Assembly: GCA_965222615.1 (NCBI GenBank) | Contig: CBDCUI010000007.1 | Span: forward strand, 512,001 to 576,000 | Direction of reading: 5' to 3' | Origin: Gammaproteobacteria bacterium | GTDB taxonomy: Bacteria > Pseudomonadota > Gammaproteobacteria > UBA4575 | DNA length: 64,000 bases | Shown here: positions 4,247-48,315 of the stretch, in pieces | How positions within the stretch are numbered: the stretch's first letter is position 1 | Layout: each line of letters begins with the position of its first letter | Program-made: the position numbers and the translations under genes | The notes under the pieces: model-generated | Seen by the model: only the letters and a program-made list of their open reading frames with translations | Told to the model about the DNA's origin: nothing | Databases searched by the model: none

Positions 4247-5545
4247 TTGATTAAAGATTTCAAAAAAATTGTGGGAGTGTCTGGCTTAGTTATTGCTGCT
4301 CGTGTAACAGGCATGTTGCTTGCATTAGCATGGGTTATATTAATTACTCGTAATATCGATGTTAATCACGTAGGTCAACTGATTTTTGGTATTTCTCTGA
4401 GTAATTTATTGGCCATATTTGTATCATTAAATATGGGTGCAGTGGCAATAAAATTTATCCCTTCATATAACGCGAGTGACAAAACTAATTATGTAAGAGG
4501 TTATTTAAATGCAGCAAATTATCTCGTCATAATAATTGCAGTAGTTATTACAGTTCTTGTAGCTGGCTTTTATTTCTGGGAACAACGAATTTCTTCTGAA
4601 ATTATTCCAATATATATCTTAATAAGCCTTTTGTCTGCGCCTTTACTTGGATGGATTCAATTACAAGCAAATTATATGCGAGCATTTGAAAAGATTTTAC
4701 TTTCAGTTGTTCCTACTTTTTTATTGCAACCGATAATAATGCTGATTCTGATATGGGTAGGTCTTGAAATGGATCTACTTGCTCGAGCAGATCAATTAAT
4801 GCTTGTATATTTTACAACTCTTTTAATAGTCTTCTTTGCACAATATATAATGTTTCAAAGTACTCTGAGCAGTAGAACAAATGATAAAGCAAATTATTCA
4901 GAACTAAAGAGTTGGTTAATACAATCACTGCAACTAATCGTACCTCTTTTATTCTTACAGAATGCTGCTCAAACAATAGTTGTATTATCAGGAGGTGTGC
5001 TCACTGAGGAAGAGATTGCAGTATCAGGAGTAATTTTACGAATAATGTCATTATTACTGTTTAGCGTCGGCTCCATAACAATGGCAACAAGCCCTAAGCT
5101 ATCAAGAGAAGTTCATTTAAAGAATGACGCAGCTGTAACTCATACTTTAGTAATCAGCAGTTTGATAAAGGCCTTAATTGTACTACTTGGATTTCTCTCA
5201 ATATTTTGGTTTGGAGAATTTATTTTAAGATTTTTTGGAGATCAATACATTGTTGGCCACACAGCGCTATTAATCTTAACTTTTGTGCCTATTGTAACTG
5301 CTGTATTTGGACCAGTCGTGCTTTTTGTAAATTTATTGAACTTGCACCTGTATTCTTTAGGGGTATTTATAATCACTATGATTTTATTGGCCATATTGAT
5401 ACTTGTGCTGGGTAAGACCTATGGAGTAGAAGGCCAAGCATATGCAGTATTGATTGCTTGGATATTTTGGAACACGTGTTTATATACAATTGTACGAATT
5501 AAGGGTAGTTATGACATATCTATATTTAACTTATTTTCTAGATAA
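4247..5545 (+). CDS. Wzx-family polysaccharide flippase
   Basis: About 12 hydrophobic segments, MOP/PST-like organisation, EPS cluster context. Confidence 0.8.
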   Translation: MIKDFKKIVGVSGLVIAARVTGMLLALAWVILITRNIDVNHVGQLIFGISLSNLLAIFVSLNMGAVAIKFIPSYNASDKTNYVRGYLNAANYLVIIIAVVITVLVAGFYFWEQRISSEIIPIYILISLLSAPLLGWIQLQANYMRAFEKILLSVVPTFLLQPIIMLILIWVGLEMDLLARADQLMLVYFTTLLIVFFAQYIMFQSTLSSRTNDKANYSELKSWLIQSLQLIVPLLFLQNAAQTIVVLSGGVLTEEEIAVSGVILRIMSLLLFSVGSITMATSPKLSREVHLKNDAAVTHTLVISSLIKALIVLLGFLSIFWFGEFILRFFGDQYIVGHTALLILTFVPIVTAVFGPVVLFVNLLNLHLYSLGVFIITMILLAILILVLGKTYGVEGQAYAVLIAWIFWNTCLYTIVRIKGSYDISIFNLFSR

Positions 5546-5622
5546 CTCAGTATTATTGGTAAATAAGGTACTAGTTAAAACTACTAAAGAAGCTACAATT
5601 TCGTAAAATCAAAAATGTAGTT

Positions 5623-6474
5623 ATGAAACAGGATAACAACACTTTACCAGATTTTATTGTAATCGGCGCAATGCGATGTGCAACAACAACTTTATACAAC
5701 TACCTATCAGCTCATCCTGAAATTGGAATATCTCGTAAAAAAGAAACTGATTACTACATTAAAGAAAAAAATTATCATTTAGGCATTAAATGGTATAGCA
5801 ACCAGTTTTCAGATGGTTACAAATGCTATGGAGAAGTTTCACCAAACTATACTAAGTCTAGAGATTTTAAAGGCGTACCTGAACGAATTATCGGAGACAA
5901 TCCGAAATGTAAATTTATATATGTTGTGCGAGACCCTGTTGACAGGTTTATCTCACAGTATACTCATTCTTTATTTATGGGGGAAAAACTACCCGAGCCG
6001 AACAAACTATATCAGACTGAAAATTGGAACCACATCTTAGATGCCAGTCTTTATCACAAACAAATATCAGAGTACCTGCGATATGTAGAAATGGAAAATA
6101 TATGTATATTAGATTACGATAAACTCGTAACACAACCATTAATAGTACTTGAAATATTATCAAAGTTTTTAAACGTCTCCAATAAATGGGATAAAATTAA
6201 TGTGCAACAGGCAAATAGTTCTGTTGAACTTGCGCACACTAGAAAATGGATTCTCGAATTATCAAATAACAGCTTTATAAAACGCTATCGCCATTATATT
6301 CCTGTAGATATTATTAATGGTGTAAAAAAAATATCTGGCACTTCAAAAGGTAGGGATAAACCAGAATTTAGTGCTGATTTAAAAAAACTGATATATGAAT
6401 CAGTAAAGGACGACAGTCAAAAATTTAAAAAGGCTTTTGGATTATCGAATGATAAGTGGTTATATAAATTTTAA
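5623..6474 (+). CDS. PAPS-dependent sulfotransferase (Sulfotransfer_1/3 type)
   Basis: LPDFIVIGAMRCATTTL (5'-PSB loop), GEVSPNY, VVRDPVDRFISQY (3'-PB). Confidence 0.85.
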   Translation: MKQDNNTLPDFIVIGAMRCATTTLYNYLSAHPEIGISRKKETDYYIKEKNYHLGIKWYSNQFSDGYKCYGEVSPNYTKSRDFKGVPERIIGDNPKCKFIYVVRDPVDRFISQYTHSLFMGEKLPEPNKLYQTENWNHILDASLYHKQISEYLRYVEMENICILDYDKLVTQPLIVLEILSKFLNVSNKWDKINVQQANSSVELAHTRKWILELSNNSFIKRYRHYIPVDIINGVKKISGTSKGRDKPEFSADLKKLIYESVKDDSQKFKKAFGLSNDKWLYKF

Positions 6475-22126: not shown

Positions 22127-22266
22127 TGTCATCGCGAGAAGCGAAGCGACGTGGCGATCCATTAAAGACTAGTAATACTAAAGTATTCCATTACATCAAC
22201 CATGATGAAAAACTTATTCGTACTTCCTCGTGCTCTCTGGATTGCTTCACTACGTTCGCAATGACG
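22127..22266. repeat. Inverted doublet of GTC-tagged REP-like palindromes (REPIN-like)
   Basis: TGTCATCGCGAGAAGCGAAGCGACGTGGCGATCCA (22127-22161) and CTGGATTGCTTCACTACGTTCGCAATGACG (22237-22266); the second matches 47313-47341 at 28/29 nt. Confidence 0.85.
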
Positions 22267-46219: not shown

Positions 46220-47215
46220 ATGACTACTGTAGCGGTATTAGGAGCTGGATCATGGGGCACAGCGCTTGCTATCCAACTTTCTCGCAATGACCATGATGTA
46301 AAAGTGTGGGACTGCGATTCGGAGTTAATCAATTCCATGCAAAGCCAAAAACGTAATCTCCGTTACCTTCCTGATAACCCACTTCCTGATCTATTACTAC
46401 CACAACAAGATTTAGCATCTACATTAAAAAATGCAGATTTTATTTTAGCCGTAATACCAAGCTACGCCATGCGGACTGTTTGTGAACAGCTTACACAACA
46501 AAACTTTATATCAAAATTTGTGTGGGCTACCAAAGGATTCGAAAAACAAAGCAGGCTAATGATGCATCAAGTTATCACCGAAGTACTTGGTGATGAGTTA
46601 CAAACAGCTGTTATTTCAGGACCTTCTTTTGCAAAAGAAGTTGCTAATAATCTACCTACTGCAGTAACACTTGCATCAAAAAATTTAACTTTTGCAAAAG
46701 AAGTAGCTGGATATTTCCATAGTGATAATTTCCGCGTCTATATAAGTGACGATGTGATTGGTGTTGAGTTAGGTGGCACTATAAAGAATGTGCTTGCCAT
46801 CGCTGCTGGTATTGCCGACGGGCTTGGTTTTGGTGCCAATGCCCGCGCCGCTTTGATTACCAGAGGCCTTGCAGAAATGATGCGCTTAGGGAAAACACTT
46901 GGGGCAAATCCAAAAACGCTGATGGGGTTAGCCGGCATGGGCGATTTAGTCCTCACTTGTACGGATGATCAATCTCGCAATCGTCGTCTTGGCCTGGCAT
47001 TGGCTAACGGCAAAACTGCACAACAATATATGGAAGAAGTAGGTCAAGCGGTTGAAGGCTTTCATGCCGCACAAGTAATACACGAAATTGCTAAAAACAA
47101 TCAAACCGAAATGCCAATCTGTGAGCAAGTATGGCATGTGCTAAATGGTAAGTTAGATCTTAAAGTTGCAATATCAGAATTGCTTGGGCGTGATATGAAA
47201 GAAGAGTTTATTTAA
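46220..47215 (+). CDS. gpsA: NAD(P)H-dependent glycerol-3-phosphate dehydrogenase
   Basis: GAGSWGTALA, SGPSFA, KNVLAIAAG, GDLVLTC..SRN. Confidence 0.98.
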   Translation: MTTVAVLGAGSWGTALAIQLSRNDHDVKVWDCDSELINSMQSQKRNLRYLPDNPLPDLLLPQQDLASTLKNADFILAVIPSYAMRTVCEQLTQQNFISKFVWATKGFEKQSRLMMHQVITEVLGDELQTAVISGPSFAKEVANNLPTAVTLASKNLTFAKEVAGYFHSDNFRVYISDDVIGVELGGTIKNVLAIAAGIADGLGFGANARAALITRGLAEMMRLGKTLGANPKTLMGLAGMGDLVLTCTDDQSRNRRLGLALANGKTAQQYMEEVGQAVEGFHAAQVIHEIAKNNQTEMPICEQVWHVLNGKLDLKVAISELLGRDMKEEFI

Positions 47216-47312
47216 TAGCTAAAATTTCTTATTTCTTGTTGGTTTAGTTTTTTGATCTTGAATTGATTACGTCATCTTTGACGTAACTCTCACTTATACC
47301 TCCATATACTCG

Positions 47313-47342
47313 CTGGATTGCTTCACTCCGTTCGCAATGACA
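47313..47342 (-). repeat. GTC-tagged REP-like palindrome, downstream flank of the GIY-YIG gene
   Basis: Reverse complement TGTCATTGCGAACGGAGTGAAGCAATCCAG; ATTGC/GCAAT stem. Confidence 0.88.
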
Positions 47343-47463
47343 ACTGGGGCAAACTGCTTGGTACACAAGTGAAACAAAATACCTCATATAGACAATAATT
47401 AATTAATGTGCTGATGTCATGTCATTTTTAGTTTATTTTTCTTTATTAATAATAAACCTAAAA

Positions 47464-47760
47464 CTATAAAATATCTTGGTACAAATCATCCCAGTTGGGA
47501 TTATTTTTCTCTATTAGGTTTAATTTTTTCTTTCTTGAACCTGCTTTTATTTGCTTTTCTCTAAGAATTGCTGAGTTTATGTTTTCATGCACTTCATACC
47601 AAACAAGAATGTGCACGTTATATTTTTTGGTAAACCCATCAACTAAGTTATGTTTATGTTCATACACACGTTTTACTAAGTTGCTTGTAACACCTACATA
47701 TAGTGTCCCATTTCGTTTGCTTGCAAGTATATATACACAAAACTGCAAAGAGTTATTCAT
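47464..47760 (-). CDS. Stand-alone GIY-YIG nuclease (UPF0213/YhbQ-like small family)
   Basis: CVYILAS..NGTLYVGVTSNL.KRVYEH, GFTKKY, AILREKQIK, NPNWDDL. Confidence 0.93.
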   Translation of the reverse strand: MNNSLQFCVYILASKRNGTLYVGVTSNLVKRVYEHKHNLVDGFTKKYNVHILVWYEVHENINSAILREKQIKAGSRKKKLNLIEKNNPNWDDLYQDIL

Positions 47761-47777
47761 GTATCTAAAGGTTATAT

Positions 47778-47853
47778 TGTCATTGCGAACGAAGTTAAGC
47801 AGTCCAATAAATAACTATGGTATAGTCATTGCGAGTGAAACGAAGCAATCCAG
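47778..47853 (+). repeat. Two tandem GTC-tagged REP-like palindromes, upstream flank of the GIY-YIG gene
   Basis: TGTCATTGCGAACGAAGTTAAGCAGTCCA (47778-47806) and AGTCATTGCGAGTGAAACGAAGCAATCCAG (47824-47853). Confidence 0.88.
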
Positions 47854-47859
47854 TCATCA

Positions 47860-48315
47860 TTATCGAAAATTATTTTGACGCCAAGCTTCATACAAAATTA
47901 TCCCGACAGCATTGGCAAGATTAATACTACGGGATTCTTCACGCATCGGAATGCGAATAATGTGTTGTGAATCATATTGTTCAAGTATTGATGTTGGTAA
48001 GCCACGTGTCTCAGGACCAAAGATAAAAATATCTCCTGGCTGATAGCTTGGAATATGGTAATTTGTGCGTCCTTTAGTAGAACATGCGAAAATCCGTTGT
48101 GGCGATAGTTGGTCTAACATTGCTTGATAGCTTTGGTGTTCAGTAATTTGTGTCCATTCTTGGTAATCAAGCCCGGCTCGACGTAATTTTTTTTCATCTA
48201 AAGCAAAACCCAAAGGATGAATTAAATGTAAATGACAGCCCATGTTTGCACATAGGCGTATGATGTTACCGGTATTGGGTGGAATTTCAGGTTCAAATAA
48301 AACAACGTGAAACAT
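47860..48315 (-). CDS. trmL: tRNA (cytidine/uridine-34-2'-O)-methyltransferase
   Basis: PEIPPNTGNIIRLCAN, RRAGLDY, FGPETRGLP, RSINLAN. Confidence 0.97.
   Translation of the reverse strand: MFHVVLFEPEIPPNTGNIIRLCANMGCHLHLIHPLGFALDEKKLRRAGLDYQEWTQITEHQSYQAMLDQLSPQRIFACSTKGRTNYHIPSYQPGDIFIFGPETRGLPTSILEQYDSQHIIRIPMREESRSINLANAVGIILYEAWRQNNFR

What the first reader, a model, noticed from the sequence alone, without database searches (positions are those of the whole stretch)
47267..47853. GIY-YIG nuclease bracketed by GTC-tagged REP palindromes: candidate RAYT-like mobiliser using a different enzyme
Seen: a 98-aa stand-alone GIY-YIG gene between gpsA and trmL, flanked by one unit on the left (47313-47342) and two on the right (47778-47806, 47824-47853). 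Consensus is GTC-ATTGCGA-N-AAGCAATCCA, with all GTC tags facing the gene. A further perfect hairpin TTACGTCA-TCTT-TGACGTAA lies at 47267-47286, and the same unit occurs as a gene-less doublet at 22127-22266. Established: GTAG-tagged REPs flank and are processed by HUH RAYT (TnpA-REP) transposases; to my knowledge the CGTC-tagged REP class has no assigned mobilising enzyme. Inference: this GIY-YIG subfamily is the cognate nuclease that recognises the hairpin plus tag and spreads or maintains these repeats.
Basis: partly seen in the sequence, partly recalled or inferred. Interest (0 to 1): 0.85.

Follow-up and report, generated by a model that had tools for sequence, protein, structure and literature searches.

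The report
Ssn nuclease with its repeat hairpins
This small gene belongs to a recently described family of enzymes that cut single-stranded DNA next to a short repeated hairpin; the gene and its repeats were inserted together between two housekeeping genes, so the idea is sound but already in print.

Summary
A 98-aa single-domain GIY-YIG gene (47464-47760, minus strand) lies between gpsA and trmL. It has one GTC-tagged unit on the left and two on the right, with all tags facing the gene.

Chenal et al. 2025 (PMC11893778) described the Ssn family: about 94-aa GIY-YIG enzymes that bind a CGTC-tagged hairpin repeat only as single-stranded DNA and cut a few bases upstream, and whose genes are flanked by those repeats.

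This protein is 60% identical (E 4e-42) to the Neisseria gonorrhoeae homologue, which sits among 10 copies of the published repeat. It keeps the three residues whose mutation abolished cutting.

The role as "mobiliser" remains unproven.

What I add:
- The 644-bp cassette is an insertion: the gpsA-trmL spacer is -4 to 15 bp in 5 of 5 relatives.
- About 35 units occur in this genome and none in the same-genus relative.
- The unit type here (ATTGCGA...GCAAT) is missed by the published search motif in 0 of 22 loci.
- That unit type pairs perfectly with Gly instead of Trp at protein position 74 (77 of 77 independent metagenome loci).

The extra hairpin at 47267-47286 is unique in the genome and not part of the repeat family.

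The parts
47216..47859 (.). 644-bp cassette inserted between the stop codons of gpsA and trmL. G+C is 32%, against 42% and 38% in the two neighbours.
   Evidence: The gpsA-trmL spacer is -4 to 15 bp in 5 of 5 relatives (G001, G002, G006, G007, G015). G+C. A diverged relative's contig in run X1 joins 47218 to 47974 with 128 letters in place of 755.
47464..47760 (-). ssn: a 98-aa single-domain GIY-YIG nuclease of the Ssn family. Predicted catalytic residues are Y10, Y21, R31, H35, E68 and N87. Gly74 marks the subclass.
   Evidence: PF01541 at E 6.6e-16. 60% identity, E 4e-42, to the NTS-flanked N. gonorrhoeae homologue. Invariant residues. AlphaFold2 model pLDDT 93.3, with GIY-YIG proteins as best fold matches. 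Gly74 rule.
47313..47342 (-). Repeat unit L (read on the minus strand: TGTC-ATTGC-GAACGGAGTGAA-GCAAT-CCAG). Its tag points to the 3' end of ssn.
   Evidence: 96.6% identical over 29 nt to three other copies in the genome.
47777..47806 (+). Repeat unit R1, with its tag 18 nt from the ssn start codon. The 3' arm is degenerate (GCAGT).
47824..47853 (+). Repeat unit R2. It ends 6 nt before the trmL stop codon.
   Evidence: 30 of 30 nt identical to a copy at contig C8:395880-395909.
47267..47286 (.). Unique perfect 8-bp hairpin between gpsA and unit L. It is not a member of the repeat family. It may be an RNA or terminator-like hairpin between the convergent genes, but it has no T-run.
22127..22161 (+). 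Repeat unit of the long form, with the compensatory stem ATCGC/GCGAT. It is the left half of a tail-to-tail doublet between ileS and lspA.
   Evidence: In the same-genus genome G001, ileS and lspA overlap with no spacer.
22236..22266 (-). Repeat unit of the short form, the right half of the ileS-lspA doublet.

Best explanation
The ORF is a member of the Ssn family: small single-domain GIY-YIG enzymes that cut single-stranded DNA at a specific site. The GTC-tagged units around it, and about 35 more across the genome, are its cognate recognition repeats. The 2025 paper calls these Ssn-related motifs; Di Nocera 2013 called them CGTC-tagged REPs.

Proposed mechanism, with its basis:
- When a unit is exposed as single-stranded DNA (replication, incoming DNA, transcription bubbles), one Ssn monomer binds the strand that carries the tag. 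Inferred from the family's biochemistry.
- It reads the GTC tag, the AT-started stem and the C that follows the stem. Inferred from the published mutagenesis.
- It hydrolyses the same strand a few bases 5' of the tag, using Mg2+ and Y10/Y21/E68. Inferred from the published mapping; the residues are shown to be conserved here.
- Double-stranded DNA, RNA and the opposite strand are not cut. Published for four homologues, not tested here.

At this locus the predicted cuts fall just inside the cassette, between each unit and the gene. In the genome's 8 head-to-head pairs, both predicted cuts fall in the 9-13 nt spacer.

Shown here: the gene and its repeats entered this lineage together as a 644-bp insertion, and this protein belongs to a Gly74 subclass that goes with ATTGCGA-type units.

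Not shown: what the system does for this cell. My best guess is trimming of single-stranded DNA at repeat-marked places, as in Neisseria transformation, combined with selfish persistence of the cassette.
For: Family membership:
- 98 aa, a single GIY-YIG domain.
- 60% identity over 90 aa (E 4e-42) to the N. gonorrhoeae homologue. That homologue has 10 copies of the published NTS repeat (6 exact, 4 with up to 2 mismatches) within 700 bp.
- 70% identity to a homologue flanked by exact NTS copies (L005).
- Y10, Y21 and E68 are invariant in 19 of 19 aligned homologues. They align with the residues mutated in the paper (Y6, Y17, E64 in 94-aa numbering).
- AlphaFold2 model with pLDDT 93.3; the best solved matches are GIY-YIG proteins BH0048, Slx1 and UvrC-N.

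Link between gene and repeats:
- 74 of 80 homologue loci from genomes have a tagged hairpin within 300 bp, 59 of them on both sides. The reversed-sequence control gives 5 of 80 and 0.
- Unit density is 4.82 per kb near the gene and 0.31 per kb further out.

Protein and repeat class vary together:
- Two changes of repeat class on the protein tree, against 19.9 expected; 0 of 500 shuffles were as low.
- Position 74 is Gly in 20 of 20 rows of the main ATTGC clade. It is Gly, Ala and Gly in a second, independent clade, and Trp in 51 of 51 ATTCC-type rows.
- In 80 independent metagenome loci, 44 of 44 Trp rows have ATTCC-type flanks and 33 of 33 Gly rows have ATTGC-type flanks. Three loci had no unit.

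Joint gain in this lineage:
- Empty gpsA-trmL site in 5 of 5 relatives.
- 15 strict units in this genome, 0 in the same-genus genome and 0-4 in 39 other relatives.
- Seven further repeat-bearing spacers were compared with G001 and G002. They are longer here than in G001 at 6 of 7 (1 inconclusive) and longer than in G002 at 6 of 7.

Genome level: among 399 genomes of the class, 20 of the 30 with 10 or more units have an Ssn homologue, against 70 of the other 369.

Published biochemistry: PMC11893778, sections 7, 8, 10 and 12 read.
Against: - No enzyme assay exists for this protein or, as far as I could see, for any Gly74-type member. The paper's supplements, which name the tested Wolbachia repeat, were closed.
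- The paper's printed degenerate motif matches 0 of 5 units in this window. By the published operational definition, this gene is therefore not 'SRM-flanked'.
- The short units fold no better than shuffled sequence.
- 10 of the 30 repeat-rich genomes in the class sample gave no Ssn match with this query. One of them has 233 units.
- The CDD assignment to cd10448 could not be checked.
- Related genomes and loci are not independent, so the association counts overstate their statistical weight. The position-74 rule rests on only two inferred switches.
Confidence: 0.85

Rival explanations
1. Ssn is the mobilising enzyme of the CGTC-tagged repeats, working like a RAYT with REPINs. Its nicks next to units seed copying or excision and reinsertion of units, of head-to-head pairs and of its own cassette. 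This does not conflict with the molecular activity above; it adds a biological role to it.
For: - The cassette is an insertion at a site that is empty in 5 of 5 relatives.
- About 35 units are present here and none in the same-genus genome. Repeat-bearing spacers are longer here than in two relatives.
- Dispersed copies are identical down to the loop: 30 of 30 nt and 28 of 29 nt.
- The ssn cassette has the same head-to-head geometry as the 8 gene-less pairs, with the 9-13 nt spacer replaced by 436 nt carrying the gene. This is the relation a RAYT has to its REPINs.
- Homologues 65-76% identical occur across distant phyla, often on contigs of about 1 kb.
- The genome's one Y1 transposase has no unit within 900 bp, so no RAYT serves these repeats.
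Against: - GIY-YIG nucleases hydrolyse DNA and are not known to form a covalent intermediate or to join strands (established knowledge of the superfamily, recalled). The enzyme alone cannot cut and paste.
- No target-site duplication or defined element ends could be found at 47216 or 47859.
- The layout of units around the gene is not fixed across loci.
- In the one genome with many ssn copies (G336), all 10 full copies ride inside an insertion sequence with its own DDE transposase.
- 10 of 30 repeat-rich genomes lack a match.
- The only tested biological role is modulation of transformation (PMC11893778, Discussion read).
Confidence: 0.25
2. A homing-type selfish gene. The repeats came first, and ssn is a free-standing homing nuclease. 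It breaks the spacer of head-to-head pairs and is then copied into the break by repair from an ssn-bearing pair.
For: - Here the gene lies exactly in the spacer of a head-to-head pair, where both predicted cuts would fall (cut position from PMC11893778, section 8).
- The gene has a patchy distribution and cross-phylum similarity.
Against: - The tags-inward layout seen here is rare. '-|gene|+' was seen in 2 of 92 Trp-type loci, while '+|gene|-' is the commonest layout.
- The published enzyme does not cut double-stranded DNA.
- Flanking units give only about 30 nt of homology for repair.
- The gene is single-copy here despite 8 empty head-to-head pairs in the same genome.
Confidence: 0.08
3. The units are ordinary extragenic palindromes (RNA stabilisers or terminators) that happen to lie beside an unrelated small nuclease gene.
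For: - Units lie between genes, often after convergent genes.
- Di Nocera 2013 suggests RNA roles for such repeats (abstract seen).
Against: - Enrichment is 16-fold next to homologues, in 74 of 80 loci from many phyla.
- Gly/Trp74 matches the repeat class perfectly in an independent sample.
- The units fold weakly, and the consensus scan reported no terminator-like site at any unit.
- Binding and cutting are published for four homologues.
Confidence: 0.03

Closest known systems
Ssn family: SsnA of Neisseria meningitidis and homologues, cd10448 GIY-YIG_unchar_3 (Chenal et al. 2025, Nat Commun 16:2388, PMC11893778)
   Same: - Size (98 against 94 aa) and a single GIY-YIG domain.
- 60% identity to the N. 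gonorrhoeae homologue.
- The same spacing of the two Tyr and the Glu.
- The gene is bracketed by oriented hairpin repeats that share CGTCAT at the 5' end and AATCCAG at the 3' end.
- Repeats are dispersed through the genome and cluster around accessory genes.
   Different: - The repeat core here is ATTGC-GAG...GAA-GCAAT: a 5-bp stem, an internal loop and an optional variable inner hairpin. The Neisseria repeat has the continuous 8-9 bp palindrome ATTCCCGCG.
- The paper's printed search motif misses this type (0 of 22 loci).
- The protein has Gly where all ATTCC-type members have Trp (position 74).
- The copy number is low, about 35.
- Tags face the gene.
- Activity and role are untested.
CGTC-tagged REP superfamily (Di Nocera, De Gregorio, Rocco 2013, BMC Genomics 14:522, PMC3733652)
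   Same: - 5' tag CGTC, TGTC or AGTC.
- The stem starts with AT.
- The tail is CCA.
- Mostly head-to-head pairs.
- Their CGTC-1 class in Neisseria is dRS3, the same repeat that Chenal et al. extend to the NTS.
   Different: - That paper found no enzyme and concluded that CGTC repeats lack a dedicated transposase.
- It describes stems of 8-9 bp and loops of 4-5 nt, which the short units here do not have.
- Chenal et al. do not cite it (0 hits for 'Nocera'), so the two descriptions had not been joined in the text I could read.
RAYT/REPIN systems (HUH Y1 transposases flanked by GTAG-tagged REPs)
   Same: - A single-copy gene flanked by inverted copies of a short tagged hairpin that is also dispersed as pairs.
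- The enzyme acts on the single-stranded hairpin.
- The distribution is patchy.
   Different: - The enzyme fold and chemistry are unrelated: hydrolytic GIY-YIG against HUH with a covalent tyrosine intermediate.
- No strand-joining activity is known.
- Mobilisation has not been shown.
GIY-YIG homing endonucleases (I-TevI type)
   Same: The catalytic domain and selfish-looking horizontal spread.
   Different: - There is no separate DNA-binding domain.
- The TIGR01453 match scores 20.6 bits against a cut-off of 56.
- Published relatives cut single-stranded, not double-stranded, DNA.

Membership tests
Ssn (Chenal 2025) | Single-domain GIY-YIG protein of about 94 aa (150 aa or less) | tested here: met
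   98 aa. PF01541 covers residues 7-81 and no other domain is found. The model is one compact GIY-YIG fold.
Ssn (Chenal 2025) | BLASTP similarity to Neisseria SsnA at E < 1e-10 | tested here: met
   Tested against the N. gonorrhoeae homologue, not the N. meningitidis protein itself, which no tool gave me. 60% identity over 90 aa, E 4e-42 pairwise and 8e-31 in the database search. That locus carries 10 NTS copies.
Ssn (Chenal 2025) | Conserved Tyr, Tyr and Glu whose mutation abolishes cutting (Y6, Y17, E64) | tested here: met
   Y10, Y21 and E68 are invariant in 19 of 19 sequences. They align with the Neisseria residues at the same spacing, 11 and 47.
Ssn (Chenal 2025) | Assignment to CDD cd10448 | not testable with these tools
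   No CDD library was on hand. NCBIfam has no model for the family.
Ssn (Chenal 2025) | Flanked on both sides within 500 bp by the published degenerate SRM string | tested here: not met
   The printed string HGTCWYN(0-2)YYVSBRHN(0-5)WNVSBRGN(0-2)RNCYNB matches 0 of 5 window units. It also matches 0 of 22 ATTGC-type homologue loci, against 47 of 51 ATTCC-type loci. It fails at the two pyrimidines required after the tag.
Ssn (Chenal 2025) | Flanked by oriented hairpins that carry the positions shown to matter (three bases before the stem, C after the stem) | tested here: met
   GTC precedes and C follows the stem in all three flanking units. The importance of these positions comes from section 8 of the paper.
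Ssn (Chenal 2025) | Cuts only single-stranded DNA, upstream of the repeat, on the tagged strand | not testable with these tools
   This needs an enzyme assay.
CGTC-tagged REPs (Di Nocera 2013) | Unpaired 5' tag CGTC (or TGTC, CCTC), a stem starting with AT, and a tail CCA | tested here: met
   The tags are TGTC, TGTC, AGTC, TGTC and CGTC. All stems start with AT and all tails are CCA. Features as listed in section 6 of the paper.
CGTC-tagged REPs (Di Nocera 2013) | Stem of 8-9 bp with a loop of 4-5 nt | tested here: not met
   The short units have a 5-bp stem and a 12-nt loop. The long units have an interrupted stem.
CGTC-tagged REPs (Di Nocera 2013) | Mostly head-to-head pairs | tested here: met
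   8 head-to-head pairs with 9-13 nt between the tags, against 3 tail-to-tail pairs.
RAYT/REPIN | HUH Y1 transposase flanked by the repeats | tested here: not met
   The flanked gene is GIY-YIG. The genome's one PF01797 gene (C8:549505-549831) has no unit within 900 bp.
GIY-YIG homing endonuclease | Catalytic domain joined to a DNA-binding domain; passes the family model cut-off | tested here: not met
   TIGR01453 scores 20.6 bits against a cut-off of 56.05, and only residues 9-39 match.

The most novel reading that the evidence does not exclude
Ssn and the CGTC-tagged repeats form a second, chemically unrelated REPIN/RAYT-like system. Ssn nicks seed the copying of units, of head-to-head pairs and of its own cassette. 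A single switch at the helix junction after the catalytic Glu (Trp74 to Gly or Ala) re-aims the enzyme from ATTCC-type to ATTGCGA-type repeats. This would explain two repeat classes that together account for nearly all family members.
Probability: 0.25. Interest if true: 0.75.

Novelty: new member of a known kind. Interest (0 to 1): 0.33.

Why it matters
The main idea is correct but no longer new: it was published in 2025 with enzyme assays. This locus adds four points.

1. It gives a clean empty-site case. The repeat-gene-repeat cassette and about 35 repeats arrived in one lineage together. This bears on the still open question of whether these systems are mobile.

2. It belongs to a repeat class that the published search motif does not find. 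In my sample that class makes up 22 of 80 homologue loci. The published survey found no motif near 29% of homologues, a similar share. I could not check whether the two sets overlap, because the supplements were closed.

3. One protein position (Gly against Trp74) predicts the repeat class without exception in 77 independent loci. That is a direct lead to the specificity determinant of enzymes now proposed as programmable single-stranded DNA cutters.

4. It joins two descriptions of the same repeats (CGTC-tagged REPs of 2013, NTS/SRM of 2025) that do not cite each other.

Tried and rejected
- Rfam: no family fits the region. All three matches have E above 5 and score far below their gathering thresholds.
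- NCBIfam: only a sub-threshold group I intron endonuclease match.
- PDB by sequence: nothing at E 0.01 or better, so no solved Ssn structure.
- Phage collection: no homologue.
- The hairpin at 47267-47286 as part of the repeat system: rejected. It is unique in the genome and within chance expectation.
- Thermodynamic support for the unit hairpins: not found. I relied on covariation instead.
- A generic tagged-hairpin finder on this low-G+C genome: useless. It gave 325 hits against 444 in the reversed genome. The figure of about 35 units is therefore my own hand curation, and is approximate.
- G336, which has 12 ssn matches, as evidence that Ssn moves itself: rejected. The 10 full copies lie in a 1.3-kb insertion sequence with a DDE transposase.
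- Target-site duplication or sharp element ends at the cassette borders: none seen.
- Naming the organism through GpsA: no named close relative. The best other protein is 82% identical and unnamed. The window's own 90% cluster has one member on one contig. From this I infer a rarely sequenced organism, not a heavily sequenced listed pathogen. This is an inference, not an identification.
- Sequencing runs: no RNA holder is listed. All four runs laid were contigs. They show the same sequence in two further studies and one diverged relative with an empty site, but nothing on present-day excision.
- Supplements of PMC11893778 were closed. They may show whether ATTGCGA-type repeats were among the 29 curated genomes, and what the tested Wolbachia repeat looks like.
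I then used the search for homologous proteins for the same question.
- The class tallies include the unpublished genomes G063, G165, G319 and G331. None of them is among the 30 repeat-rich genomes. G319 is one of the 70 'other' genomes with an Ssn match. No other claim rests on them.
Full report
**What is there**

The window is G000:C7:512001-576000. Between the convergent genes gpsA (46220-47215, plus strand) and trmL (47860-48315, minus strand) lie 644 bp. This stretch holds a 98-aa ORF on the minus strand (47464-47760) with one Pfam domain, GIY-YIG (E 6.6e-16).

Three copies of a roughly 30-nt unit flank the ORF:
- 47313-47342 (minus strand)
- 47777-47806 (plus strand)
- 47824-47853 (plus strand)

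Each unit reads tag (T/A)GTC, then ATTGC, about 12 nt, GCAAT, and the tail CCAG. All three tags point to the gene. The doublet at 22127-22266 is also real, with its tags pointing outward. The strict pattern occurs 15 times in the genome and 0 times when read backwards.

**The units as structures**

The short units are poor hairpins by energy: -1.8 to -2.4 kcal/mol, no better than shuffled sequence. The 5-bp stem is nevertheless real. I detected units without asking for complementarity at two of the stem positions. Of 123 such units, 116 are Watson-Crick at both positions, in five pair types: TT/AA 79, TC/GA 27, CT/AG 7, TG/CA 2, TA/TA 1.

Longer units carry a variable inner hairpin between GAG and GAA. 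By hand curation, the genome holds about 35 units. They form 8 head-to-head pairs with 9-13 nt between the tags and 3 tail-to-tail pairs.

The separate hairpin at 47267-47286 is stable. It is unique in the genome and within chance expectation, with 0.23 such hairpins expected in 644 bp. It has no T-run. I do not count it as part of the system.

**It is already known in kind**

A full-text search led to Chenal et al. 2025 (PMC11893778). I read the outline, sections 7, 8, 10 and 12, and passages. The paper reports:
- The Ssn family (CDD cd10448) consists of single-domain GIY-YIG proteins of about 94 aa.
- The N. meningitidis enzyme binds the repeat CGTCATTCCCGCGMAVGCGGGAATCYRG only as single-stranded DNA, on one strand.
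- It cuts a few bases upstream of the repeat.
- It is inactivated by Y6A, Y17A and E64A.
- Cutting depends mostly on the three bases before the palindrome. Binding depends most on the C after it.
- Three further homologues cut next to their own repeats.
- 71% of homologues have such a motif nearby, and 42% have one on both sides.
- In N. meningitidis the system lowers transformation with repeat-bearing DNA.
- The resemblance of repeat-gene-repeat to an insertion sequence, and to RAYTs, is raised as a hypothesis only.

Di Nocera et al. 2013 (PMC3733652) had defined CGTC-tagged REPs: head-to-head pairs, tail CCA, and Neisseria dRS3 as class CGTC-1. They found no enzyme for them. I read passages and section 6. 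The 2025 paper does not cite the 2013 paper.

No later paper on the family appeared in three searches. Searches for GIY-YIG with COG2827, and with 'repetitive extragenic palindromic', gave nothing relevant.

**Membership**

The plasmid collection happens to hold two 2.17-Mb N. gonorrhoeae records. In one of them the homologue has 10 NTS copies within 700 bp, 6 of them exact. My protein is 60% identical to it over 90 aa, at E 4e-42.

Y10, Y21 and E68 are invariant in 19 of 19 aligned homologues. They align with the mutated Neisseria residues at the same spacing. The AlphaFold2 model is confident (pLDDT 93.3), and its best solved matches are GIY-YIG proteins. There is no solved Ssn structure. 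The cd10448 assignment could not be tested.

**Independent test of the association**

I took the 80 best homologue loci from one-genome-per-species contigs and used a simple rule for a unit: GTC, a 5-nt stem, its complement, then C.
- 74 of 80 loci have a unit within 300 bp of the gene, and 59 have one on both sides.
- The same sequences reversed give 5 of 80 and 0.
- Unit density is 4.82 per kb near the gene and 0.31 per kb further out.

In a sample of 399 other genomes of the class, 20 of the 30 with 10 or more strict units have an Ssn homologue (E 1e-15 or better). Among the other 369, 70 have one. Ten repeat-rich genomes gave no match, one of them with 233 units. This genome's one Y1 transposase is not flanked by units.

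**What is new here**

(a) Two repeat classes.
- Units near homologues fall mainly into ATTCC-type (continuous palindrome, as in Neisseria) and ATTGC/ATCGC-type (as in this window).
- The paper's printed degenerate motif finds 47 of 51 ATTCC-type loci, 0 of 22 ATTGC-type loci and 0 of 5 window units.

(b) The protein follows the repeat class.
- The class needs only 2 changes on the protein tree, against 19.9 in shuffles; 0 of 500 shuffles were as low. Seven unlabelled rows were left out.
- This protein sits in the ATTGC clade (SH-aLRT 94).
- Only positions 73-75 discriminate the two classes.
- Position 74 is Gly in 20 of 20 rows of the main ATTGC clade. It is Gly, Ala and Gly in a second clade nested among Trp-type proteins, and Trp in 51 of 51 ATTCC-type rows.
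- In 80 further loci from metagenomes, all 44 Trp rows have ATTCC-type flanks and all 33 Gly rows have ATTGC-type flanks. Three loci had no unit.
- In the model, residue 74 lies at the break between the helix that carries E68 and the next helix.
- Related sequences are not independent, and only two switches are inferred. The rule did predict an independent sample without error.
- The paper's main text does not mention this. Its supplements were closed.

(c) The cassette is an insertion.
- In 5 of 5 relatives, gpsA and trmL are -4 to 15 bp apart, against 644 bp here.
- A diverged relative's contig in run X1 shows the same compact junction.
- The cassette has 32% G+C, against 42% in gpsA and 38% in trmL.
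- A close Ssn homologue was found in only 2 of 40 relatives, and not in the same-genus genome.
- The same-genus genome has 0 strict units, against 15 here.
- At seven further repeat-bearing spacers, this genome has the longer spacer than G001 at 6 (1 inconclusive) and than G002 at 6. At the seventh, G002 has an unrelated spacer of similar length.
- Gene and repeats were therefore gained together in this lineage.

**Mobiliser or not**

The joint gain, the identical dispersed copies and the shared head-to-head geometry of cassette and empty pairs fit a RAYT-like role.

Against it:
- The fold is a hydrolase with no known joining activity (recalled).
- I saw no target duplication at the cassette borders.
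- The layout of units around the gene varies. The tags-inward layout seen here is rare, and '+|gene|-' is the commonest.
- In the one genome with many ssn copies, the copies ride in an IS4/IS5-type element with its own transposase.

I put this reading at about 0.25.

**Verdict**

This locus is a new member of a known kind, in a subclass (Gly74, ATTGCGA-type units) that the published motif does not cover.

Noticed in passing
L103:242-1553 (G336:C4), with 9 further copies in L104-L112: In an unrelated genome of the class, ssn (96 aa) lies inside a roughly 1.31-kb element present in at least 10 copies that are 95.6-99.9% identical. The element has about 70-bp terminal inverted repeats, an IS4/IS5-type DDE transposase split into 198 and 47 aa, CTAG at both borders, and a GC-rich hairpin followed by ATCCAG inside each terminal repeat. 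An insertion sequence has taken ssn and its hairpins as passengers.
   Followed up: partly
G000:C8:158500-167500 (L122), outside the window: Seven or eight units cluster here. They bracket an IS3-type integrase gene, an AAA_14/DUF4143 ATPase, a metallo-beta-lactamase-fold protein, a short-chain dehydrogenase and a ParE toxin gene. Repeats therefore mark accessory genes, much as described for Neisseria.
   Followed up: partly
L080:4824-5830: Two ssn copies lie in tandem (5001-5279 and 5427-5705). Each is separated from the next by the same minus/plus pair of two different unit types, giving a repeating module of about 426 bp.
   Followed up: no
window 47488-47501 (+): The only terminator-like site in the spacer (ATCCCAGTTGGGAT followed by a T-run) lies inside the 3' end of ssn on the opposite strand. 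It is placed to stop read-through from gpsA.
   Followed up: no
G000:C7:652400-655500 (L115): A head-to-head pair sits at the edge of a 1.4-kb segment that is absent from this site in G001 and G002. Part of the segment matches a different place in G001, so a repeat lies at a rearrangement border.
   Followed up: no
plasmid collection records NZ_CP119140.1 and NZ_CP119142.1: Two 2.17-Mb Neisseria gonorrhoeae records are filed as plasmids, yet their size suggests whole chromosomes. This was useful here, but it is a labelling oddity.
   Followed up: no
runs X4 and X5 on window 47254-47963: Contigs identical to parts of the cassette and its junction with trmL occur in runs of two other studies under other organism labels. 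The same organism is probably present there at low depth.
   Followed up: no
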